From: a phage
Length of the DNA: 64,000 nt
Direction: 5' to 3' (one strand)
Sequence record: PZ445443.1
Numbering within the stretch: the first letter of the stretch is position 1; every line of letters begins with the position of its first letter. Made by a program: the position numbers and the translations under genes. Below the pieces are notes generated by a model. The model searched no databases and was not told the origin of the DNA. It was given only the letters and a program-made list of their open reading frames with translations. Positions 13,389 to 45,330 of this stretch are shown here, one piece after another.

Positions 13389-13425
13389 AATAAAAAGGGG
13401 CCAAACGGCCCCTTTCTTTTTATAA
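13389..13425. terminator. bidirectional rho-independent terminator between convergent transcription units
   Basis: AAAAAGGGGCCaaacGGCCCCTTTCTTTTT: GC stem flanked by A-tract and T-tract; separates + tail genes from - strand genes. Confidence 0.7.
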
Positions 13426-13626
13426 TTAGTAATATTCCCAACACGACCCATCTTCAGACGGCTGGACACGCTTACCTTCATGATCGACATAGGTGTAACC
13501 ACAGCCTTCACAGATAACAGGTGCCGCATAACCTTCCTTCCACTGCTTCTCCGTGATCAATCCTTTCAGATCTCCGCAGTCACGACCAAACAACTCTTCA
13601 GAACAGTCTTTACAAAAATCAGCCAT
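13426..13626 (-). CDS. small zinc-ribbon protein (CxxC...CxxC)
   Basis: 66 aa; CKDC and CEGC cysteine pairs. Confidence 0.5.
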   Translation of the reverse strand: MADFCKDCSEELFGRDCGDLKGLITEKQWKEGYAAPVICEGCGYTYVDHEGKRVQPSEDGSCWEYY

Positions 13627-13692
13627 CTCTATCAGTCTCCATATTTAACCAATCTATATTACATATTGCCGAAGAAACAGTATTTCATTTCA

Positions 13693-13911
13693 TCACAGAT
13701 CTCCAACAACTTCCCAAATACCCCAGTGAGCATCTATATCCTTGATAAAGTATCTTTCTCCACGGTTTGTCCACACACCTACCCCAACTTTACCATCTAT
13801 CCCATTGTATACATCTGCCTCATACTCTTTGCCCGGTGTAAAGTGTACACCCATCATAAGGGCTGTTATTCCGTTAGGATTTTTAAATTTAACAAATTTT
13901 ACTTTGCTCAT
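13693..13911 (-). CDS. hypothetical small protein (72 aa)
   Basis: ORF track; GKEY...IKD pattern resembles the small paralog family seen elsewhere in the window. Confidence 0.5.
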   Translation of the reverse strand: MSKVKFVKFKNPNGITALMMGVHFTPGKEYEADVYNGIDGKVGVGVWTNRGERYFIKDIDAHWGIWEVVGDL

Positions 13912-13912
13912 A

Positions 13913-14242
13913 TTACTTAATCCTTGCAGTTACAGTAGCGCTATACCCCATATAGTTATGAGACATAAAGAATGTAAGCCCTTTAAGTTCAGGATTCTTT
14001 CTAAGAAATCGTTTCAATTTTCGAATGCAATTAACACCATGATCATAGTTTGAGAAATTAAATTTAATACCCTGCTCCATCATAGTGCACACTTCTTCAT
14101 GGGTATGCCATTGTCTATCGTGGTCACAAAACCAGTAACCAATACCTTCTTTTTCTTGGATATGCAACCCCCAAAATACTTTATGCATTGGATATTTTGG
14201 TTTTCTACCATGATAATGTAGTTTAATATTCACATGTGCCAT
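13913..14242 (-). CDS. hypothetical protein (109 aa)
   Basis: ORF track; tightly packed with neighbouring - strand genes; TTGACA-N18-TATTCT promoter-like sequence upstream on - strand. Confidence 0.5.
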   Translation of the reverse strand: MAHVNIKLHYHGRKPKYPMHKVFWGLHIQEKEGIGYWFCDHDRQWHTHEEVCTMMEQGIKFNFSNYDHGVNCIRKLKRFLRKNPELKGLTFFMSHNYMGYSATVTARIK

Positions 14243-14411
14243 TTTTTGTTACTCCGTTCTGTATCTGTGATAATGAGAATAGCAAACTGGGGTGTGTGCT
14301 GTCAACAACATTTTTTAAGCGTTTTGGGGAAGTTTTTTGAAAGGTGGGTGTAATCACAAGAGAGGGTGGAGTTATTGAAGGCACAGGCCTCGTTTGAGGC
14401 CTTAAATTCTA

Positions 14412-14792
14412 TTATGACACTTTGACATAGCGCTCTGACAGGGCTGGAAAGCCAAAAGCAGTACCTATACTACCGTACGCTACCCACCATTGAAGTTCAT
14501 CGTGACACCATTTTCCGATCAGGAAGGTGCTGGGGTAGCGGGTCAGTATTTTGGCATAAGCTTTAGGGTCTGCATCTTCTGGGATAATGATACTTGGAAC
14601 ATCTTTGTTATGACCACAGCAGCAGTTTAGAGTTTTCAATCCTGCCGCCCATAGACTCATGATAGGCTTAACCATGCACTTATCAAGGCACACACGTTTT
14701 TTGCCGTCACGGAGCTTTTTAGGCACATCAACGATAACATTTTGATGCTTGGCACCTTTCACTTTCCAATTATAGGATTTACACTTGCACAT
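14412..14792 (-). CDS. hypothetical Cys-rich protein (126 aa)
   Basis: ORF track; CCCGHN cysteine cluster; no confident family assignment. Confidence 0.45.
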   Translation of the reverse strand: MCKCKSYNWKVKGAKHQNVIVDVPKKLRDGKKRVCLDKCMVKPIMSLWAAGLKTLNCCCGHNKDVPSIIIPEDADPKAYAKILTRYPSTFLIGKWCHDELQWWVAYGSIGTAFGFPALSERYVKVS

Positions 14793-14819
14793 TTAATCAG
14801 TCTCCATCTAGAAAGCAAT

Positions 14820-14993
14820 ACTTTACTTAAAATCTTTGTCACCTATTACGATTGCACGAATCCACTCATTGTGATGTTCAATGGCGGCAAGGCGTAACAT
14901 AATGCAGTGATTGTCATTACTAAACACGGTGCGGTAAGCTTTAGCAGCACCATGATATAACTTCCACATCAGGTAATGATATCTTCGCCTCAT
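14820..14993 (-). CDS. hypothetical small protein (57 aa, below ORF-track cutoff)
   Basis: ATG with GGAG 9 nt upstream; fills gap between flanking - strand genes. Confidence 0.3.
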
Positions 14994-14998
14994 GGCTC

Positions 14999-15469
14999 TT
15001 ACTCCGGTTCAGGATCTGGGTAATCTTCAATAATAAAAGGCCATCCGTTCCGCTTAGCCTCAGACTTATACTCGATCTCCTTCATTGCAAACTCTAACTG
15101 ATTTTTAGCCGGAATACATGCCGGAGAATCATCAATCCAAATATCTGGGTAGATATCAAACTGCGCCAGATAGGCTGCCTTCTGAACACCTCCAGTATAA
15201 AACACACCAACATCAAGCTCCTTGCGCCAATACTCAATGTCTACATTGTCTTGAGTAATGAATCGGAAAGTCACAAGGTAGACTGTCCACCCCTCCTTCT
15301 TCAGATCCCTGATCAGGCGGGAGAAGATGAAAGGGCTCGCATTAAATGTTCCATCAAAGTCAATGGCAATGATGTGTGTGCCGTGGCGTGTCTCATATGG
15401 ATTGCTTGTGGTAAGATTGCTGTAGTTAAAAGGGACCTCTTCCCCGCAGTAGCTGTAGTCCATATTCAC
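14999..15469 (-). CDS. HAD-superfamily phosphatase (nucleotidase-like)
   Basis: 156 aa; IAIDFDGT matches HAD motif I (DxDGT). Confidence 0.6.
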   Translation of the reverse strand: MNMDYSYCGEEVPFNYSNLTTSNPYETRHGTHIIAIDFDGTFNASPFIFSRLIRDLKKEGWTVYLVTFRFITQDNVDIEYWRKELDVGVFYTGGVQKAAYLAQFDIYPDIWIDDSPACIPAKNQLEFAMKEIEYKSEAKRNGWPFIIEDYPDPEPE

Positions 15470-15741
15470 ACCTTCTCGTTGATAAATTTACGGGCGGTTT
15501 GGTGAGTTGTTTCTGCTGTCTTCAGAATGATATTAATTTTATCGTCAAGATCATTCATCTCAGCAGTTAATTCAGGAATCTCTCCGGCATGCATGGTGAA
15601 ATCATACATAGACATGCCCAGAATCTCATTGATTCGGCGGTTGCATTCTGCAGCACGCTGGTTCATTTTCCAAGCCAACACCAGAGCCTCTTGCGTAGCC
15701 TCCAGTGCAAAGTCTAATACGTCAGCTTCTTCTTTCGTCAT
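15466..15741 (-). CDS. hypothetical protein (91 aa)
   Basis: ORF track; overlaps downstream gene start by 4 nt. Confidence 0.45.
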   Translation of the reverse strand: MTKEEADVLDFALEATQEALVLAWKMNQRAAECNRRINEILGMSMYDFTMHAGEIPELTAEMNDLDDKINIILKTAETTHQTARKFINEKV

Positions 15742-15796
15742 CTCAGTCTCTCTTGTTGTATTGTTAGTAGGTGCATGAACACCTTATATCTCACTT

Positions 15797-16363
15797 TTAT
15801 TCAAACTGCAATAGCAAGTCCACCACCGCGCTAGGTCTGTCAACAAATTCCCCAGGTCCACATGCCCACAGAGGGTATCCGTCCACATACCGCCAAATCC
15901 AACCTGCAGTGTGGAGTTCGAGCAGGGCAGTACCGTCCTTACTGTCAACCACTCTTTCCCACAGTGTTGGGCAGCGAAGCTTGAGAATCGGATCACCTCC
16001 CTTATACCCGTCCATGTAGATACCCATTGCAAAGTTCAGCATCATCTTTTTGTGCACTGATCTCTTACTGAGGGTGCTCATCACTTCCTCTTTGTGAATG
16101 TTTGTAAGCTTCTCTTTGGCTACCCACAGATCGTTGCAACCATTGTTCAGCAGATCTTCCAGACACTTGATCCGGAGGTCGTGAATGTCTTTGTCGTGTA
16201 CCGTTGGCACAGGGTCGTAGCGGTATAGCACTGTTGATACAAGGTTGCTCGGGTGTGGGTCTGACAGCAACCCATAACCCCAATACTCTTCTGTATCTGA
16301 AAGGACAAGACACCCAATGTCTCTGTCAAGCTTTCCTGTGTTGTAAGCCACATTGACCGCCAT
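15797..16363 (-). CDS. hypothetical protein (188 aa)
   Basis: ORF track; no recognisable motif. Confidence 0.5.
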   Translation of the reverse strand: MAVNVAYNTGKLDRDIGCLVLSDTEEYWGYGLLSDPHPSNLVSTVLYRYDPVPTVHDKDIHDLRIKCLEDLLNNGCNDLWVAKEKLTNIHKEEVMSTLSKRSVHKKMMLNFAMGIYMDGYKGGDPILKLRCPTLWERVVDSKDGTALLELHTAGWIWRYVDGYPLWACGPGEFVDRPSAVVDLLLQFE

Positions 16364-16365
16364 GA

Positions 16366-16611
16366 CTATAGCTCCACTAGCAAAGTGCTTTCAAAGTGCC
16401 GTTCATGCAGACCGTTGTAAGGGACCACTTCCACAACACCATCACGGACATACGGGGCCATCATAGTGGTATAATCTCCAAACGGGTTGGTATTGTCACT
16501 AACCACAACCACCTTCTGCCCTTCCTTGGCAGAGTGCCAAATAGATCTACACTTCATCAGGTGTTCGAGAGCTCCAGGTAAAATTTTGTTACGTTCTTTA
16601 CGGGTCTTCAT
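16366..16611 (-). CDS. hypothetical small protein (81 aa), possible member of tandem paralog array
   Basis: ORF track; GQKVVVV segment resembles G-x-VV motif of downstream paralogs. Confidence 0.45.
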   Translation of the reverse strand: MKTRKERNKILPGALEHLMKCRSIWHSAKEGQKVVVVSDNTNPFGDYTTMMAPYVRDGVVEVVPYNGLHERHFESTLLVEL

Positions 16612-17057
16612 AACAGATATAGCTCCTTATGAAAGTGGTCTTTTAATTTCTCACTGAGAAACTTCTTGATACCTTCCTCTAAAGTGTTTTCGATGTAGTC
16701 CAGCTTAACTGCTTCGATGGACATATCATAGATTGCCAGCTCTAAGCTGTCAAGTCCCATCATAGCATGAACCATAAGATTTTCATCTTCAGATACATTC
16801 AGGGGACTTCCTATAACATCTGGAGGCAGAATAGTTTCCCAATTATTCTGGGTGGTAGTTCTCCCGCCATCTACTTTACGGCGCAGTTCGAATGTGTTCT
16901 TAGTGTAGAACACTTCATAAGAAACGATACGACTGTCACTCTCATAATAAACGAAGTTCAGGTAGGAGCCTAGCCGCAGTCGGCAAACTTCCACCCCAAA
17001 CCATTGTTTCTTATAAGAATTCAGGCTAATGCTGTCGCATTCACGTTTGCTCAACAC
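16608..17057 (-). CDS. hypothetical protein (149 aa)
   Basis: ORF track; start overlaps upstream stop. Confidence 0.5.
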   Translation of the reverse strand: MLSKRECDSISLNSYKKQWFGVEVCRLRLGSYLNFVYYESDSRIVSYEVFYTKNTFELRRKVDGGRTTTQNNWETILPPDVIGSPLNVSEDENLMVHAMMGLDSLELAIYDMSIEAVKLDYIENTLEEGIKKFLSEKLKDHFHKELYLL

Positions 17058-17073
17058 GGCTATCTCCTTTTTG

Positions 17074-17307
17074 TTAATCTTCGTAAATCAGGATTTCTGC
17101 TTTAGGTTTTCGTGCTTTCAGGTCCAGCTCTATCCAGTGCACCATAGCTGTTTCAAGAAAAACAGCTTGGATGCATCCGTCCTCAGCGTGCCCCACCAAC
17201 ATAACGAGATCTTCACCTTCGTCATCTGCATCACGAACATAAAGAATCTCTCCAGATTCGAAGTCTTTCACAACCTGATTGCTAGATAATTTTCGAATTT
17301 TTGCCAT
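17074..17307 (-). CDS. small paralog family protein (77 aa)
   Basis: ORF track; same length class and hydrophobic/acidic pattern as the three 87-aa paralogs. Confidence 0.5.
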   Translation of the reverse strand: MAKIRKLSSNQVVKDFESGEILYVRDADDEGEDLVMLVGHAEDGCIQAVFLETAMVHWIELDLKARKPKAEILIYED

Positions 17308-17308
17308 A

Positions 17309-17572
17309 TCAGAAACCCTCTAAAAAGCTCTTGTAGAAAACAATCTCAGTATCCACACCAGTCACAATCTTGTCGTTCCTGATTTCATCGGTAAGATAGG
17401 TGTCAAAACGCAGAACCTGTGTGGTGTTGTCACACATCCACTCAGCTGTGACCATTGCGAAAATCTTAGCATCTTCATTATCTGGTGTGAATGTTACCAC
17501 CTCACCGCACTTAAACTTTTCGATAGGCTGAGTGTTAGCTTTCGGTTCTGCGATAGTGATTTTTGTGGTCAT
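17309..17572 (-). CDS. small paralog family protein (87 aa)
   Basis: ORF track; CGEVV motif shared with neighbour; ATGA start/stop overlap. Confidence 0.55.
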   Translation of the reverse strand: MTTKITIAEPKANTQPIEKFKCGEVVTFTPDNEDAKIFAMVTAEWMCDNTTQVLRFDTYLTDEIRNDKIVTGVDTEIVFYKSFLEGF

Positions 17573-17835
17573 TATTCTCCTCCTTCTTTTGAATAGCTTG
17601 TCTCTCCAAGGATGGTAATTTTGGTGTCAAGCTCTGTAACTTTCATGTTTGGCGGCAGATCGTACAACTCATTATTTTCTAAATCGAACCCCCACACACA
17701 ATGTTCTCCTGTTTTGACAATCATAACTATGTTTTGAATACCGTCTCCGTCGCAACTTACCACGGTCCCACACGGAAAACTGTCTGCACGCTTTTTGTTC
17801 TTCACCTTAGAATTGAATACAATGCTAGTAGCCAT
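17572..17835 (-). CDS. small paralog family protein (87 aa)
   Basis: ORF track; MAT...KK...CGTVV...VK...FDL...LP...V-E-D...ILGE aligns with neighbour. Confidence 0.55.
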   Translation of the reverse strand: MATSIVFNSKVKNKKRADSFPCGTVVSCDGDGIQNIVMIVKTGEHCVWGFDLENNELYDLPPNMKVTELDTKITILGETSYSKEGGE

Positions 17836-18098
17836 TATTGTTCCTCCACCATAACTTCGCCAAGAATTTCTATGCAGGCATCCATTTCTGTAACAACCAA
17901 ACTGTGAGGTAGTTCTACAAACACCTTTCTGAACAGGTCAAATACCCCAACATATATGTTTGCAGGATGTGATTTTACAACAAGTGCTGTATTCACATCC
18001 CCAAGTTCATCAACAAACATCACCACAGCGCCTGGAGCTACTGAGGACAGATACTTCTTAGTTTTACGGTTTGATGCAAATTTTAACTCTGTTGCCAT
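17835..18098 (-). CDS. small paralog family protein (87 aa)
   Basis: ORF track; MAT...KK...GAVV...VK...FDL...LP...V-E-D...ILGE aligns with neighbour. Confidence 0.55.
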   Translation of the reverse strand: MATELKFASNRKTKKYLSSVAPGAVVMFVDELGDVNTALVVKSHPANIYVGVFDLFRKVFVELPHSLVVTEMDACIEILGEVMVEEQ

Positions 18099-18113
18099 AA
18101 ATAACCTCCTCTC

Positions 18114-19574
18114 TTACTTAGCGTACTCGATTAATTCCACAGTTTTCCCAAAGCTCGGGATATAATTTTTATTATACCCTTCAGTGAGGACCCATAGAGT
18201 ATCGTACTTTTTCCACTTGTTGTCAACAGCCTTTTGTTCAAAGTTATGCTCAAAGTATAGGTCGGTCAGGACGATGACATCTTTTGCATTCGGTATGTTG
18301 GCATCCAGATACTCGAACACGCAAGCAGCTGTTGTGCCCCATGTTGAGTGGACCTCATAGTTGATCATCTCGTCTATGTTGCCGCGAGTGTATACTTTAA
18401 CCTCTCCAACCTCAGTTGACCAACAGAACATTGTAACCTTAAACTCTTTATACAGATTGCACAATCCGGTGATTTCATTGAACATTTTCTTTAAAGTTCT
18501 CTGAGAGATCGAGCCAGAAACGTCTAAAGCCACCACAATATCTATAGTGTTTTCCGGATTACGACCAGGAACAATAACGTGCTGGTTCTTGTTTATAGCC
18601 CCAACTTTTCGCATTGTGCTGGTCAAAGACCCAGATCGGCGACCAGGTTTTCTGTAGGTCAGTTCGGCCTTTCTTTTAGACAACATGCGTTGCTTAATGA
18701 TGTCTATATAGTTGATTACAGGCTTACCTCTGTTCTTGACAAACTCACGCACCGCCTCAGGGCAACGGCCTCCGGACGCTTGCATTGCTGCCTCCAGCAT
18801 ATCGCCAGAGTCCTGCATGGCCTGATCTTTATCAGATTGGCTGATTACAGGTTGTGGCTGATCATACCCCATAGCCTTTCCAAGATTATCACTGGTGCCA
18901 CCATTCCCACTCATGTGATCATCGGTTTGTCGCTTATCACCTTGAGAGTTCTCACCTTTACCGCTCTTACTTTTACCGTTATTCTGATCTCTTTGCTTAT
19001 CAAGAACTGCATAAACGTTCTCAGCAATCCATCCATGAAACTTCATGTCGCAGTAGCAGCTGGCTAAGAAGCCAAAAGGCTTACCTTTCACGAACGTAGT
19101 GCTTTTCCCCTTCGGGAAGAAAACACAAGGAGGTTTGCTAAAGTCAACCACAAGGCCTGTGTTGATAACGTGATCACAAGCAATATTGAACAGTTCCGGC
19201 TCAAAGCTTTTACCACGGACCAGGTGATCACAGATAATATGCCCCACCTCATGTGACAGAAGGAAGGCCACCTCTTTCACAGATTTTGGGGAATAGAAAA
19301 CTTCAGCCATCTCAAACTGCTCGTCAGTTAGAGAAGCCTTAAGAATAGCCTTGCGTTCATCAGCCAATCCCATAATGAACTCAGGACTGTAATAGATGCG
19401 TTTATGGTCGGTTGCCATGGTGGAGCACCATGTGTGGTTTTCTACGAACTGCAACCCTGACAGTAGTGTGCCATAAAACGGCAGCTTTTCAAGGAGATAC
19501 ATACGTGCAGCCTGCAACATTCTCAGGGCATCATCTTTCTGTGAGGTAATGATTTCTGAACTTCTGCTATCCAT
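18114..19574 (-). CDS. VWA-domain protein with N-terminal metallopeptidase-like domain (HExxH)
   Basis: HEVGHIICDH zinc-binding motif; VVALDVSGSI MIDAS-type motif; ATG at 19574 with GGAG 5 nt upstream (ORF track starts at TTG 19595). Confidence 0.7.
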   Translation of the reverse strand: MDSRSSEIITSQKDDALRMLQAARMYLLEKLPFYGTLLSGLQFVENHTWCSTMATDHKRIYYSPEFIMGLADERKAILKASLTDEQFEMAEVFYSPKSVKEVAFLLSHEVGHIICDHLVRGKSFEPELFNIACDHVINTGLVVDFSKPPCVFFPKGKSTTFVKGKPFGFLASCYCDMKFHGWIAENVYAVLDKQRDQNNGKSKSGKGENSQGDKRQTDDHMSGNGGTSDNLGKAMGYDQPQPVISQSDKDQAMQDSGDMLEAAMQASGGRCPEAVREFVKNRGKPVINYIDIIKQRMLSKRKAELTYRKPGRRSGSLTSTMRKVGAINKNQHVIVPGRNPENTIDIVVALDVSGSISQRTLKKMFNEITGLCNLYKEFKVTMFCWSTEVGEVKVYTRGNIDEMINYEVHSTWGTTAACVFEYLDANIPNAKDVIVLTDLYFEHNFEQKAVDNKWKKYDTLWVLTEGYNKNYIPSFGKTVELIEYAK

Positions 19575-19584
19575 TAAAACTCCA

Positions 19585-19605
19585 GAAGGGGCCAATGGCC
19601 CCTGT
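19585..19605 (-). terminator. intergenic GC hairpin (terminator/attenuator or processing site)
   Basis: AGGGGCCAaTGGCCCCT palindrome between two - strand genes. Confidence 0.35.
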
Positions 19606-19607
19606 CA

Positions 19608-20648
19608 TTATTTAACGTGTTTGAAAATACCTGCCAACTCGGTCATTGTCATGCGGGTGGTCTTCATAAGATCTGTCATAGCTTTCTCCATAATTGGAGA
19701 TACTACCATAAAGTTTCCTTTAGTGAAACCTTTATTCCAGTCGGTCACCAACAGTGGTTTAAGTCCAGCTCCGAGACGTTCACCAGTTAAAGCACAGCAT
19801 TTGCGAATATACGAACTCTTAAATTGGCTGAACGACAGATCAACTTTCATACCTGCATCGTAGAACGTTTGACAATAGAAAGTGTAAGCCTTAGCAATCT
19901 CAACATCATCAGGCAGTGCAGGAACCTCTTCTGCAATCCCCTCTTCGACCTCCTGAGGCTCTTTTTCCTCTTCAGAGTTCTGTTCTTCAACTTCTTCTGT
20001 CACAGTCTCGTTCACGATGTCTGAAATGTGTTTGTTGGCTGCACGATCAGCCATGAAATTTTTAAAGTCCTGCATTGGTGACATATCTTCTTCCTCTTCG
20101 TCAAATAGTGCTAGTTTATCTTCTTCTGTCCCGTATTGCAAGATGAAATCTTCAAAAGTATAATCACCTTTCAATTTCTCCATACGCTCTTCGCTCAGGT
20201 GGAGCATCATCTGCTGGACAATTTTTCGATCAGTTTTGTCTTTAATCAGGATTGCAGTCTTTTTATCTACCAGACAGTCTTTCAGAGCATTGCACCTCAA
20301 CCCTACCACACAACAATTGTCAATTGCGTAAGGGCCTTCATCATCTATACGCTCCAAAGATGGGTAGAAAGGATTCCCCAGCCCGTTTTCATCTGTGTGC
20401 ATGTCAAAAGGTATAAGGGTATAGTCGCATACTCCATCTCCTAAAAGTTTTTTACCAAATAGGAGGTATTCTTCCCATGACAGGTCGAACTCTATATCTC
20501 GTTTCCGTGCGTTATTCTGTTTGCGTCTATATTTTTTGAGCAAGCGCTCTAACTCTTCTGGTGTATAATATTTTTCAAGATTCATGAGTCGTCTCTCGTG
20601 CTCTGTAAGTGAAGAAATCGTATCAATTGTCTCAACAGATGTCAACAT
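19608..20648 (-). CDS. hypothetical protein with acidic central region (346 aa)
   Basis: ORF track; ATG at 20648 (track uses TTG 20651); Glu-rich low-complexity segment. Confidence 0.5.
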   Translation of the reverse strand: MLTSVETIDTISSLTEHERRLMNLEKYYTPEELERLLKKYRRKQNNARKRDIEFDLSWEEYLLFGKKLLGDGVCDYTLIPFDMHTDENGLGNPFYPSLERIDDEGPYAIDNCCVVGLRCNALKDCLVDKKTAILIKDKTDRKIVQQMMLHLSEERMEKLKGDYTFEDFILQYGTEEDKLALFDEEEEDMSPMQDFKNFMADRAANKHISDIVNETVTEEVEEQNSEEEKEPQEVEEGIAEEVPALPDDVEIAKAYTFYCQTFYDAGMKVDLSFSQFKSSYIRKCCALTGERLGAGLKPLLVTDWNKGFTKGNFMVVSPIMEKAMTDLMKTTRMTMTELAGIFKHVK

Positions 20649-20658
20649 CAAAAACGTG

Positions 20659-41383: not shown

Positions 41384-41749
41384 ATGGAACAAATGAACGA
41401 TCAAGCGTCGGTTGCGATGAACGAGCAAGAACAACCTCAAGAATTTTTCTTAGGGTTAAGTAAAGATCAAGTGTCTCTTCTACTAGTGCTTTCTTCTTTC
41501 ATGGGAAGACTTCAGGAGCTCACACAACAACCAGAGGCTGAACAATTATTTCAAGCTCTGCGTGAAGAAGAAAAATATCGTCGTTTGGACTATGCCTTAG
41601 GTTGGGTAGCTCAACAACGAGATATGCTGATGGCCCTCTCTGGGACCACAAGTTTTGCAATGGGGCTGTTGGCTCAAGTTCAGGACAAATTAATTCAAGC
41701 AGGGTTTGCACACACGGCAAACACTAACGAAGAACAAGGAGACAAATAA
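41384..41749 (+). CDS. hypothetical protein (121 aa)
   Basis: ORF track; RBS GGAGA. Confidence 0.5.
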   Translation: MEQMNDQASVAMNEQEQPQEFFLGLSKDQVSLLLVLSSFMGRLQELTQQPEAEQLFQALREEEKYRRLDYALGWVAQQRDMLMALSGTTSFAMGLLAQVQDKLIQAGFAHTANTNEEQGDK

Positions 41750-43020
41750 TGAGCGTTATTCAACAATTCGCTAACCCGATGAATCCGCGTGAAACTGTTT
41801 TACTGGCTCACGGCATGATTAAACGTGTCAGCATCAAGCCTATCAAAGGTGCTGATCCTACAACAGGTATTAAAACCACTGTGTGGCAAGGTAAGAAAAT
41901 TGAATCCAGCCACACCATCTCTTTACTGATTTCTGAACTGGATTCCTCTGATAACCTGCTTCAAGGTGGTGAAGAAGTCTGGATCAGTATGGGTGATAAA
42001 CTGCTTAAACCGGGTCATCAAGACTCTGTCTCTGTTAAAATTGATGACAAGTGGGAAACCGTAACACCGGGATGGATCGTAAATATCCCTTTGAAGGCAA
42101 ACGAGCATAACGGTAAGACCTATTACAAAGGCTCACTGGCTAAGATGGTCAAGCTGGGTGCAGGAGAGGCTCCAGCAGCGACTCAGCAGCAAAAACAGCA
42201 ACAAGGTGCACAATCACAAGGCCAGAAGCAGAAACCTCAGCAGAATGCCAATCAGGACGTTTTACGCATCTATGGTGATGTGACTCAGATTGTTGGCAAC
42301 GTGGTTACTGTTAATGACCACAAGATTGGCGAAGGTGCTATGGTTGTCACTGATGAGCAGCTTAAAGACCTGGTGGTAGGTGGTCGTGTTGCAGCCATTG
42401 TTGACAAAGACACCGGAAACATTATCAGTGGTTTCAAAGCCTATCCACCTAAGGCAGAGAACGGCACCCAAGGCTCTGGTGGCAAGCGTAAATCCTCTTA
42501 CGACCCTATTGGTGTGGAGACGGGACATAGCATCAATGCGTTGCAAATCATCCTAGATCGCGGGTTTAAGGTGGACGACCCACTAAGCGTGGCTAAAACA
42601 CTGCACGTAGTCACCATTGAGCTTAAGAAAGAGTATGCTCAAGCCACCAACCGAACTGAAGATGAAGTAGGTGCCAGTGTCGGTAATGCGGTGTTGAACG
42701 CTTGTCGCCGTATTGACAAGAAAACGAAAGTTGATGATTTTGCAGCGGCAATTACTGCAGAAGCAAAAGATGTCTTGACTAATCTGGCTGAGCCGTTGTA
42801 CGATTGGATCAAGAACGGTGCTGGGTCCACTGACCATCAAGAACCTCAAGCTGCCAAACAGGAAGCTGCTTCACAGCAAAATACTGTAGACGCTCCTCCT
42901 GTAAATGACGAGGAAGATGACCCGATGGGTCAGAATCCGGCGCAGTATGACTTCTGTGATGACATACCTTTCGCTCCGGTAGGTTTGCAATATGGCAAAA
43001 GTAGAATCCACGCATTGTAA
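41749..43020 (+). CDS. putative ssDNA-binding/replication protein with SSB-like acidic DDIPF motif near C-terminus
   Basis: 423 aa; Gln-rich linker; ...DFCDDIPF resembles the E. coli SSB C-terminal tip but is followed by 15 more residues; in replication module. Confidence 0.4.
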
Positions 43021-44456: not shown

Positions 44457-44882
44457 ATGATCTATGAAATGCCAAAACTGATTCGTGACGATGCCCAAAA
44501 CGCTCACACCATTATTATGGGCAAACGCATGGATATTATTTGTCATAAAGATTTCTGGGAAGGAAGTTACTTCACAGAGTATTTTGGTAAACTGGACAAT
44601 GGTCTGCTGATCCAGTTCTACACCGATGCGGAAAACAACATTACCTGGGAGTTCGAAACTGAAGATGTCCATAAACTTTTCACCTTCCTCGGTATTAAGG
44701 TTAAGGCCAAGTTTGAAGAAGGTGAGTGCGACGATTGTGGATTTTATGAGGTAACAGATTTCTACCTTCCTAGCGGTAAGAACCTTTACTATGAAAGCCA
44801 CTTCGGTAACTCCAATATGCCACAGTGCTGGACTGAGTTTTTTGAAATTGCGGAAGAGGAGCTGGCTTACCGTGATTATTGA
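44457..44882 (+). CDS. hypothetical protein (141 aa)
   Basis: ORF track; RBS GGAGAA. Confidence 0.5.
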   Translation: MIYEMPKLIRDDAQNAHTIIMGKRMDIICHKDFWEGSYFTEYFGKLDNGLLIQFYTDAENNITWEFETEDVHKLFTFLGIKVKAKFEEGECDDCGFYEVTDFYLPSGKNLYYESHFGNSNMPQCWTEFFEIAEEELAYRDY

Positions 44883-45330
44883 TACTGTGGAGGGAGATTT
44901 AATCTCCCTTTTTAAGATCGGTGCTGGTCACCTGATCCACGGTTGTAACTGCTTCCACACAATGGGCAAGGGTATAGCAAAACAGATTGCCCGTGAGTTT
45001 CCTCAAGCACTGTCAGCCGACAAAGAGACTAGATACGGTTGCCTAAGTAAACTGGGTGCGTTCTCCCGATGGGAGCACTTATCTCCGATAGGTATTGTCT
45101 ACGGAATCAATCTATATACCCAGTTCTACCCAGGACCTAATGCTGAGTATTTCTCAATCCTGAAAGGCTTTGAGCTAGTCAATGAAGTATTCAGCGGATC
45201 GACTTTACCATTCTACATCCCTAAGATCGGGTGCGGCATAGGCGGTTTGAAGTGGGAACACGTAGAGGACGTTATCAACCTTGCCACTTTCGACATAGAT
45301 ATTGTCGTGGTGGAGTACAAAAAGTGTTGA
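44872..45330 (+). CDS. macro-domain protein (ADP-ribose binding/processing)
   Basis: HGCNCFHTMGKGIA and IPKIGCGIGGL resemble macro-domain glycine-rich motifs; GTG 44872 with GAGGAG upstream (track start 44791 overlaps upstream gene). Confidence 0.55.
   Translation: MIIDTVEGDLISLFKIGAGHLIHGCNCFHTMGKGIAKQIAREFPQALSADKETRYGCLSKLGAFSRWEHLSPIGIVYGINLYTQFYPGPNAEYFSILKGFELVNEVFSGSTLPFYIPKIGCGIGGLKWEHVEDVINLATFDIDIVVVEYKKC

What the first reader, a model, noticed from the sequence alone, without database searches (positions are those of the whole stretch)
16366..18098. Tandem array of four to five small paralogous genes on the - strand
Three consecutive 87-aa ORFs (17309-17572, 17572-17835, 17835-18098) share MAT...KK...G-x-VV...VK...FDL...LP...V-E-D...ILGE and are joined by ATGA start/stop overlaps. 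The 77-aa ORF 17074-17307 and probably the 81-aa ORF 16366-16611 fit the same pattern. In-genome tandem duplication with divergence of a tiny protein is typical of rapidly evolving host-interaction or anti-defence genes.
Basis: seen in the sequence. Interest (0 to 1): 0.55.

Follow-up and report, generated by a model that had tools for sequence, protein, structure and literature searches.

The report
Tandem small beta-barrel phage genes
An rV5-like E. coli phage carries four adjacent genes for small, related beta-barrel proteins that a close relative can lose without harm on a lab host; the first two are swapped for a single divergent gene in most relatives, which marks them as accessory host-interaction candidates of unknown function.

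Summary
The ORFs are real and sit in the early-region operon of a Vequintavirus (rV5-like) phage, 100% identical to phage Mangalyan. The array has four members, not five.

- **A (17835-18098) and B (17572-17835):** clear paralogs (38% identity, z=20.6).
- **C (17309-17572):** a distant paralog (hhalign score 34.6 against a shuffle maximum of 19.8).
- **D (17074-17307):** a probable fourth member (profile E=3e-4, next window ORF 0.86; same predicted strand order).
- **F (16366-16611):** no detectable relationship; it belongs to a different, broader family.

The junctions are TAATG (1-nt overlap), not ATGA.

AlphaFold gives an all-beta model for A (pLDDT 84.5). Its best solved-structure matches are SH3-like/Tudor/KOW barrels. 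No characterised homolog exists.

"Rapidly evolving" holds only for the first slot. Of 117 phage genomes, 43 carry A+B and 74 carry one gene, X (about 40% identical to either), with gene-precise boundaries in 93-94% identical flanks. C and D are among the most conserved genes of the operon (dN/dS 0.02-0.04).

Published transposon data for Bas54 call X, C, D, E and F non-essential.

The likeliest role is dispensable early binder proteins for host takeover or counter-defence. That role is inferred, not shown.

The parts
17835..18098 (-). Gene A, 87 aa. First member of the variable slot; phrog_10698. Present in 43 of 117 related phage records.
17572..17835 (-). Gene B, 87 aa. Paralog of A (38% identity), same PHROG. 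Always co-occurs with A.
   Evidence: Census: 43 records at 80% identity or more. TAATG junction with A, and the Shine-Dalgarno GGAGG lies inside A's last codons.
17309..17572 (-). Gene C, 87 aa (rV5 gp015, bas54_0053). Distant paralog of A/B, highly conserved.
   Evidence: hhalign probability 86.7%, score 34.6 vs shuffle max 19.8. hmmsearch E=1.2e-5. 117 records, all at 93% identity or more. dN/dS 0.024 vs L005. Non-essential in Bas54.
17074..17307 (-). Gene D, 77 aa (rV5 gp016, bas54_0052). Probable fourth, most divergent member; highly conserved.
   Evidence: hmmsearch E=0.0082, improving to 3e-4 with C in the profile. hhalign profile-profile E=7.8e-4. AlphaFold pLDDT 69.5 with the same seven-strand order as A. 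BFVD rank 4 is the X-type protein of phage Pr121LW, E=0.078. dN/dS 0.035.
16608..17057 (-). Gene E, 149 aa (rV5 gp017, bas54_0051). Unrelated gene that separates D from F; not part of the family.
   Evidence: phrog_6790, labelled 'tail protein'. Not among the family-profile matches. Non-essential in Bas54; log2FC -2.28, adjusted p 0.195 in CFE311.
16366..16611 (-). Gene F, 81 aa (rV5 gp018, bas54_0050). Proposed fifth member; not supported as a paralog.
   Evidence: phrog_4868. Not among hmmsearch matches up to E=10. 67/200 hhalign shuffles reach its score. F-family profile vs array profile probability 0.6%. It has its own distant relatives in Certrevirus and Stephanstirmvirinae phages, which the array members lack.
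18114..19595 (-). Upstream gene of the same operon: DUF2201 metallopeptidase plus VWA-like domain (rV5 gp012/013, bas54_0055).
   Evidence: Pfam PF13203 E=1.2e-27 and PF09967 E=3.6e-11. In Bas54 it is conditionally important in E. coli CFE311 (log2FC -2.20, adjusted p 0.009).
13392..20645 (-). Inferred operon that contains the array. It runs from a sigma-70-like site (20645-20617) upstream of the Srd-like gene to a bidirectional terminator (13417-13392).
   Evidence: Consensus scan. The rV5 record annotates promoter P11 before gp011, P20 before gp020 and terminators after gp026. Genes are tightly packed or overlapping. Negative GC skew over 12-20 kb.

Best explanation
Genes A, B, C and D are four old tandem duplicates of one small single-domain protein. 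They are all-beta, with a predicted SH3-like/Tudor-like barrel preceded by an N-terminal hairpin.

**Expression (inferred).** They appear to be co-transcribed in the divergent early-region operon of an rV5-like phage, right after an Srd-like anti-sigma gene and a DUF2201 metallopeptidase/VWA gene. Translation looks coupled through TAATG and TGAtATG junctions. The Shine-Dalgarno sequence of each downstream gene is written into the acidic tail codons of the gene before it.

**Function (inferred).** With no catalytic motifs, they most likely act as stoichiometric binders of host, or possibly phage, macromolecules early in infection. That would make them accessory host-takeover or counter-defence factors that are dispensable on a permissive lab host.

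**Two evolutionary regimes (shown).**
- The first slot is a discrete, recombination-shuffled cassette holding either A+B or one gene X.
- C and D are under strong purifying selection.

I read this as a variable target for the first slot and a conserved target for C and D.

**Shown:** paralogy, predicted fold class, operon context, the dimorphism, purifying selection, and dispensability in Bas54.
**Inferred:** early expression, binder function, and the host-interaction or anti-defence role.
For: **Paralogy:**

**Coding and selection (window vs L005).**
- dN/dS is 0.22 for A, 0.024 for C and 0.035 for D.
- dS for C and D is about 0.62, so synonymous sites are free and the constraint is on the protein.
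- Strong Shine-Dalgarno sites and 1-nt overlaps are present.
- No Rfam RNA family matches the region.

**Fold.**
- D, predicted independently from its own shallow alignment, gives the same seven-strand order.
- BFVD matches are all uncharacterised small phage proteins.

**Narrow family.**
- Only three real clusters at 50% identity were found among 1.84 billion representatives.
- 30 clusters at 90% identity were found, all of them from phage-like contigs or E. coli assemblies.

**Dimorphism.**
- 43 records carry A+B and 74 carry X; no mixed types appear in the counts.
- Against rV5 the flanks are 94% and 93% identical, the interior 51%. Identity breaks after the first 12 nt and resumes at the TAATG of C.
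- Both haplotypes occur within one species-level cluster: isim and MaxTheCat carry A+B, AlexBoehm carries X.

**Mobility:** a fourth lineage, Y, sits at a different locus in a divergent relative.

**Dispensability:** bas54_0054 (X), 0053 (C) and 0052 (D) are called Non-essential, with 17/17, 13/15 and 12/12 TA sites hit (Bas54 = MaxBurger).

**Neighbourhood:** in Bas54 the MoxR ATPase of the opposite arm is needed against the predicted system DS-28, and the adjacent metallopeptidase is depleted in CFE311.
Against: - No experiment shows binding, toxicity or anti-defence activity for any member.
- In the one conditional screen readable here (Bas54 on CFE311), X (+0.46) and C (+0.33) are neutral, and D (-1.32, p=0.13) is not significant.
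- The BASEL raw-data rows I could read looked alike for phages of both haplotypes: no plaques on Fun/Z, and EOP near 1 on Old and Tin. My assignment of rows to phages is not certain.
- D's membership rests on weak scores and a model of only moderate confidence (pLDDT 69.5).
- Early timing comes from the promoter annotation of the rV5 record and a consensus scan, not from transcript data.
- The low divergence of C and D in L005 may partly reflect recent recombination. Their dS (0.62) is lower than in the flanking genes, where it is saturated.
Confidence: 0.5

Rival explanations
1. The small barrels are accessory subunits, adaptors or substrates of the phage's MoxR ATPase and DUF2201 metallopeptidase/VWA module. 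In the related phage Bas54 that module counters the predicted defence system DS-28. On this view the variable first slot would tune target recognition.
For: - The array starts 15 nt after the metallopeptidase stop, in the same operon.
- The same order, peptidase then family member(s) then C then D, is seen in rV5, phita32, Pr121LW, Bas54 and the divergent contigs L005-L007.
- In CFE311 the MoxR ATPase (-7.23) and the metallopeptidase (-2.20, adjusted p 0.009) are depleted. E (-2.28, p 0.028) and D (-1.32) trend the same way.
Against: - X and C insertions are neutral in that same host.
- The Y-lineage member is not next to a peptidase; it follows an NT5C-like gene and precedes a gp024-like gene.
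- The effects on D and E do not survive multiple-testing correction.
- No interaction has been modelled or measured.
Confidence: 0.12
2. They are Tudor-like mimics that bind host RNA polymerase or another nucleic-acid machine, much as the Tudor-like domains of UvrD, Mfd and CarD or the KOW domain of NusG do. They would act together with the Srd-like anti-sigma gene to redirect host transcription early in infection.
For: - The first gene of the operon is annotated as Srd-like or anti-sigma factor in rV5 and Bas54.
Against: - Ribosomal L2 and eukaryotic Tudor/PWWP domains score as well or better, so the match is to the fold, not to a function.
- There is no significant sequence similarity to any solved protein (best E=0.16).
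- The genes are dispensable on K-12.
Confidence: 0.12
3. The array is functionless genomic filler: neutral or decaying duplicates kept only by linkage.
For: All members are non-essential in Bas54, no characterised homolog exists, and some truncated 52-61 aa family members occur in metagenomic contigs.
Against: - dN/dS is 0.02-0.22 with substantial dS.
- Intact ORFs with preserved lengths and Shine-Dalgarno sites are found across 117 genomes.
- The A-family model is confidently folded.
Confidence: 0.05

Closest known systems
PHROG families phrog_10698 (A, B, X), phrog_12861 (C) and phrog_12046 (D), all 'unknown function'
   Same: The window proteins match these profiles end to end, with E-values from 1e-41 to 1e-62.
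   Different: PHROGs keeps them as three unrelated families. Here a deeper family profile links C (hhalign probability 86.7%) and, more weakly, D to the A/B/X/Y family. None has an assigned function.
SH3-like small beta-barrel domains (Tudor, KOW, C-terminal domain of ribosomal protein L2, UvrD/PcrA C-terminal Tudor, CarD RNA-polymerase-interacting domain)
   Different: There is no sequence similarity. The phage proteins are stand-alone and about 85 aa, with two extra N-terminal strands and a disordered acidic tail. No ligand-binding feature such as an aromatic cage or an RNA-polymerase-contact surface was tested.
Uncharacterised small phage proteins of about 70-90 aa in BFVD (e.g. Serratia phage Hera A0A7T3N9D3, Vibrio phage Thalassa A0A2H5BHC0, Escherichia phage LAMP A0A2I6PD60, N4 Gp21 A0MZB1)
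   Same: Similar predicted fold and size (Foldseek E 2.6e-4 to 2e-2, TM 0.55-0.65). Several also appear in D's hit list.
   Different: Identity is 9-22%, there is no evidence of common descent, and all are uncharacterised, so they add no functional information.
Variable accessory-gene cassettes in phage early regions (anti-CRISPR/anti-defence loci, allelic internal-protein genes of T-even phages); recalled from my own knowledge, with HIDEN-SEQ giving T-even examples
   Same: Small early genes, dispensable in the lab, replaced as discrete units between otherwise near-identical genomes, and located near genes with demonstrated anti-defence roles.
   Different: No anti-defence activity is shown for any member. 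Two of the four paralogs (C and D) are conserved rather than variable. There is no marker gene such as an Aca regulator.

Membership tests
A/B/X/Y small-barrel family (phrog_10698) | Full-length, significant match to the family profile | tested here: met
   A scores E=6.2e-42 and B scores E=4.8e-41 over 87/87 profile positions. The A-B pairwise score has z=20.6.
Extended array superfamily (A/B/X/Y plus C plus D) | C: colinear profile match above a shuffle null | tested here: met
   hhalign probability 86.7%, 73 columns, score 34.6 vs 200 shuffles with max 19.8. hmmsearch E=1.2e-5 among 375 window ORFs.
Extended array superfamily (A/B/X/Y plus C plus D) | D: profile match above the null, and the same predicted topology | tested here: inconclusive
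   - hmmsearch E=0.0082, improving to 3e-4; the next window ORF scores 0.42-0.86.
- hhalign probability is only 4-25%.
- The AlphaFold model has pLDDT 69.5 with the same seven-strand order as A.
- Foldseek rank 4 is the X-type protein, but at E=0.078 and TM 0.39.
- Overall this favours membership without proving it.
Extended array superfamily (A/B/X/Y plus C plus D) | F: any profile signal | tested here: not met
   F is not among hmmsearch matches up to E=10. 67/200 hhalign shuffles reach its score. F-family profile vs array profile gives probability 0.6%.
SH3-like / Tudor small beta-barrel fold | Five-stranded, strongly bent antiparallel barrel that superposes on known members | tested here: met
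Tudor domains as methyl-lysine/arginine readers, or Tudor-like RNA-polymerase-interacting domains | Aromatic cage, or a conserved surface that contacts the RNA polymerase beta lobe | not tested
Phage anti-defence proteins | The gene is needed for, or sufficient to restore, phage growth on a host that carries a specific defence system | not testable with these tools
   Published Tn-seq for Bas54 gives only indirect data. X and C are neutral, and D is not significant, on E. coli CFE311. All are non-essential on K-12.

The most novel reading that the evidence does not exclude
The first slot of the array (A+B versus X, with Y elsewhere) could be a balanced allelic cassette of SH3-like binder proteins, shuffled by recombination. 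Each allele would neutralise, or avoid triggering, a different host immune system. That would make this a new structural family of phage anti-defence or defence-escape proteins. The invariant paralogs C and D would bind a conserved host factor.
Probability: 0.22. Interest if true: 0.6.

Novelty: new member of a known kind. Interest (0 to 1): 0.36.

Why it matters
rV5-like phages are among the most often isolated E. coli phages and are used in therapy and biocontrol work, yet their early genes are almost entirely unannotated.

This result does three things:
- It links three "unknown function" PHROG families as likely relatives in one small-barrel superfamily.
- It shows a clean two-allele cassette (A+B or X) that recombination moves within species-level clusters.
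- It places that cassette beside a MoxR/metallopeptidase pair that recent transposon data tie to defence evasion.

That gives a short, concrete list of genes for swap and deletion experiments on natural hosts. If they prove to be anti-defence or takeover factors, they would add a compact beta-barrel scaffold to a repertoire better known for helical and DNA-mimic proteins. If not, they remain ordinary phage accessory ORFans.

Tried and rejected
- **F as a fifth paralog.** Rejected at the sequence level.
- **X as a deletion-fusion of A's N-terminus with B's C-terminus.** The DNA aligner's gap placement suggested this. Rejected: the N-terminal half is 42% identical to A and 39% to B, and the C-terminal half 38% and 40%.
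- **Recent duplication.** Rejected: no DNA-level repeats, and the A/A' and B/B' pairs show that the duplication predates the split from the L005 lineage.
- **Long hits in the representative search.** Four proteins of 533-2151 aa matched through 6-22 short stretches each. They are repetitive proteins that I treated as spurious.
- **Known families.** Pfam, NCBIfam and PDB sequence searches gave nothing above threshold.
- **RNA elements.** Rfam gave nothing in 14-21 kb.
- **Other family members in the window.** None were found, nor in Certrevirus or Stephanstirmvirinae loci that carry F homologs.
- **Haplotype vs BASEL defence phenotypes.** The raw rows I could read looked the same for both haplotypes (Fun/Z sensitive, Old and Tin insensitive). 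The table is hard to parse, so I did not pursue it.
- **Literature.** Searches found no paper on these genes.
Full report
**Source and setting**

The window is a Vequintavirus (rV5-like) myovirus. Positions 16300-19600 are 100% identical to Escherichia phage Mangalyan and 98-99.9% identical to dozens of other E. coli phages.

The finding lies on the - strand in a run of tightly packed genes. I label them as follows:

| Gene | Coordinates | Equivalent |
|---|---|---|
| Srd-like "anti-sigma" gene | 19608-20651 | rV5 gp011 |
| DUF2201 metallopeptidase + VWA | 18114-19595 | rV5 gp012/013 |
| A | 17835-18098 | - |
| B | 17572-17835 | - |
| C | 17309-17572 | rV5 gp015 |
| D | 17074-17307 | rV5 gp016 |
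| E | 16608-17057 | rV5 gp017 |
| F | 16366-16611 | rV5 gp018 |
| G | 15797-16363 | rV5 gp019 |

The peptidase domains are PF13203 (E=1.2e-27) and PF09967 (E=3.6e-11). The rV5 record annotates a sigma-70 promoter (P11) before gp011, another (P20) before gp020, and terminators after gp026. In the window, a consensus scan finds a TG-extended 10/12 site at 20645-20617 and a strong bidirectional terminator at 13392-13417. GC skew is negative over 12-20 kb. Co-transcription as an early operon is therefore inferred, not measured.

The ORFs exist as described.

- **A and B** are certain paralogs. The Smith-Waterman score is 98 against shuffles of 23.2 ± 3.6 (z=20.6, 0/300). Identity is 38%, and both match phrog_10698.
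- **Other pairs** are marginal pairwise: B-C z=4.5, C-D 3.6, B-D 3.3, D-F 2.7 and A-F 2.4. PHROGs files C, D and F in separate families.

I therefore built a 24-sequence family alignment (A4) from database relatives and tested each candidate against it.

- **C:**
  - hhalign gives probability 86.7% over 73 colinear columns.
  - The score is 34.6, against 200 shuffles of C with mean 10.7, sd 2.3 and max 19.8.
- **D:**
  - The single-sequence hhalign score is 17.7, reached by 1 of 200 shuffles.
  - Profile against profile gives E=7.8e-4, probability 25%.
- **F:** the score is 10.4, reached by 67 of 200 shuffles. The F-family profile scores probability 0.6%.

An independent check scanned all 375 window ORFs of at least 45 aa with the family HMM. 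The results were A 1.5e-39, B 2.4e-38, C 1.2e-5 and D 0.0082, then noise from 0.42. After adding C to the profile, D improves to 3e-4 with the next ORF at 0.86, and F never appears. The third and fourth best hits in 64 kb are exactly the two adjacent genes.

My conclusion is a four-gene array, A-B-C-D, in which D is probable rather than proven. F is not a detectable member.

The junctions are not ATGA. A/B and B/C are TAATG (1-nt overlap) and C/D is TGAtATG; only E/F is ATGA. The Shine-Dalgarno of each downstream gene (GGAGG or AAGGAGG) lies in the last codons of the gene before it. Part of the shared acidic "EE" tails therefore reflects ribosome-binding-site constraint. Those tails have lower model confidence: the last block of the A model has mean pLDDT 66. 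There are no DNA-level repeats and no Rfam match.

**Are these real genes?**

I compared the window with L005, a divergent relative from a metagenomic assembly that has the same gene order.

| Gene | Protein identity |
|---|---|
| Srd-like | 0.60 |
| peptidase | 0.81 |
| A | 0.55 |
| B | 0.64 |
| C | 0.98 |
| D | 0.95 |
| E | 0.61 |
| F | 0.68 |
| G | 0.55 |
| H | 0.37 |

- C has dS 0.62 and dN/dS 0.024.
- D has dS 0.64 and dN/dS 0.035.
- A has dN/dS 0.22.

Synonymous sites do vary, so the constraint acts on the proteins. The dS of C and D is lower than in the flanks, where it is saturated. Part of their similarity may therefore reflect more recent recombination.

**Distribution**

- The A/B profile found only three genuine 50%-identity clusters among 1.84 billion representative proteins: A, a B-like protein and an X/Y-like protein. 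The four other hits are long repetitive proteins matched by many short stretches, which I treat as spurious.
- The 5.8-billion-protein index returned 30 clusters. They fall into the lineages A/A', B/B', X (rV5 gp014) and Y. Between the three deep clades (A/A', B/B', X/Y) identity is 29-40%; within clades it is 55-78%.
- C has only relatives of at least 93% identity in the phage collection. D has relatives of 87-99% identity in the large protein index.
- F has distant relatives in Certrevirus and Stephanstirmvirinae phages.

**The variable slot**

In the phage collection, 117 records carry the family. Of these, 43 have A (at least 90% identity) and 43 have B (at least 80%), while 74 have only X (at least 95%). 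The counts fit two haplotypes with no mixed types.

In an alignment of the window with rV5:
- identity is 94% upstream;
- the first 12 nt of the first gene (ATGGCAACAGAG) are identical;
- the interior is 51% identical and carries a 269-column length difference;
- from the TAATG start of C onward, identity returns to 93%.

Both haplotypes occur within one species-level cluster. Phages isim and MaxTheCat carry A+B, while AlexBoehm, grouped with isim in BASEL, carries X. Likewise Murica carries A+B, and Pr121LW, classified as Vequintavirus murica, carries X. So the slot is exchanged by recombination as a discrete unit.

X is not an A/B fusion.

Lineage Y sits elsewhere in a divergent relative. 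It follows an NT5C-like gene and precedes a homolog of window ORF 14412-14792. The block lies between homologs of window 41749-42972 and 44872-45324.

**Structure**

- **A:** AlphaFold2 with alignment A4 gives pLDDT 84.5 and pTM 0.69, with seven strands and no helices.
  - This assigns the fold class (SH3-like small beta-barrel) and nothing more specific.
- **D:** predicted from its own shallow alignment, it gives pLDDT 69.5 with strands in the same order, shifted by about 4 residues.
  - Its BFVD search returns its own ortholog first and the X-type protein of Pr121LW at rank 4 (E=0.078, TM 0.39).
  - Several hits are shared with A's list.
- All BFVD neighbours are uncharacterised.

**Experimental data from the literature**

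The HIDEN-SEQ preprint (10.1101/2025.11.20.689424) mapped transposon insertions in Bas54. Bas54 is phage MaxBurger, an X-haplotype Vequintavirus: bas54_0054=X, 0053=C, 0052=D, 0051=E, 0050=F and 0055=peptidase.

On E. coli K-12 all of these are called Non-essential. TA sites hit were X 17/17, C 13/15, D 12/12, E 30/33 and F 16/16.

Results for the clinical isolate CFE311 relative to K-12:

| Gene | log2FC | Significance |
|---|---|---|
| X | +0.46 | not significant |
| C | +0.33 | not significant |
| D | -1.32 | p=0.13 |
| E | -2.28 | p=0.028, adjusted p 0.195 |
| peptidase | -2.20 | adjusted p 0.009 |
| MoxR ATPase (bas54_0063) | -7.23 | adjusted p 0 |

The authors report that bas54_0063 and bas54_0140 are required to overcome the predicted system DS-28. 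The array is therefore dispensable in the lab and lies next to a module with a defence-evasion phenotype. No member of the array itself has a demonstrated phenotype.

**Mechanism**

*Shown:*
- four related small all-beta proteins under purifying selection;
- tight coupling signals at the gene junctions;
- dispensability in Bas54;
- a two-allele first slot.

*Inferred:*
- early expression;
- action as non-enzymatic binders of host or phage macromolecules;
- a variable target for A/B/X and a conserved target for C/D.

I put about 0.5 on the general reading [quoted passage not shown]. The more specific rivals score lower:
- adaptors of the MoxR/peptidase module, 0.12;
- Tudor-like RNA polymerase or nucleic-acid-machine binders, 0.12;
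- functionless filler, 0.05.

**Novelty and verdict**

The genes are already annotated as hypothetical proteins in more than a hundred genomes. Variable early accessory cassettes are a known kind of phage feature.

What is new here:
- the likely link between three PHROG families;
- the fold assignment;
- the sharp A+B/X dimorphism contrasted with near-invariant C and D;
- the exclusion of F.

Interest is moderate (0.36). This is a well-defined candidate set for experiment, not a surprise.

Noticed in passing
window 18114-19595 (-) and the opposite arm of the divergent early region: The DUF2201 metallopeptidase/VWA gene just upstream of the array has a published conditional phenotype in the related phage Bas54: log2FC -2.20, adjusted p 0.009 on E. 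coli CFE311. The MoxR ATPase of the opposite arm scores -7.23 and is reported as needed against the predicted system DS-28. PHROGs and RefSeq label the peptidase family 'HNH endonuclease', which conflicts with its Pfam domains. In the rV5 reference the gene is split into gp012 and gp013.
   Followed up: partly
window 16608-17057 (-), gene E: E is labelled 'tail protein' by phrog_6790 and RefSeq. However, it sits in the early-region operon and is non-essential in Bas54 (30/33 TA sites hit), so the label looks doubtful. It shows a non-significant depletion in CFE311 (log2FC -2.28, p 0.028, adjusted p 0.195).
   Followed up: partly
L008 2897-3157; L009 5001-5252; window 14412-14792 (-): A fourth lineage of the family (Y, 83-86 aa) lies at a different locus in a divergent relative. 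It sits directly before a homolog (59% identity) of the Cys-rich window ORF 14412-14792 (rV5 gp024), and the pair lies between homologs of window 41749-42972 and 44872-45324. The two genes may have moved together.
   Followed up: partly
phage collection records MG0656xx ('Campylobacter phage ...'): About 16 records named Campylobacter phages, with host Campylobacter jejuni, are 93-100% identical to E. coli rV5-like phages across this locus. This suggests mis-assigned hosts or contaminating phages in those lysates.
   Followed up: no
HIDEN-SEQ preprint, Extended Data Table 8, sheets S6 and S7: In the stored text, the rows I saw for bas54_0046-0063 carry identical numbers in the sheet that precedes S7 (listed as S6, K-12 vs CFE303) and in S7 (K-12 vs CFE311). 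Both sheets report 27 significant genes. One sheet may be a duplicate, so only the CFE311 comparison could be used.
   Followed up: no
window 19587-19603: A perfect 7-bp GC-rich hairpin (AGGGGCC AAT GGCCCCT) sits between the Srd-like gene and the metallopeptidase. The Murica record annotates a terminator there on the gene strand. It could attenuate transcription into the peptidase and the array.
   Followed up: no
window 16366-16611 (-), gene F: Unlike A-D, F (phrog_4868) has distant relatives (30-41% identity) in other genera: Certrevirus CR8 and phiTE, and Stephanstirmvirinae Klebsiella phages. There too it sits in runs of small hypothetical genes. It is older and more widespread than the array.
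   Followed up: partly
L005-L007 (Logan assemblies SRR22580009, DRR842906, SRR23924973): These contigs represent a divergent Vequintavirus-like lineage with the same gene order. Most proteins of the locus are 37-81% identical to the window, but C and D are 98% and 95% identical. That is either a recombination patch or an unusually strong constraint.
   Followed up: partly
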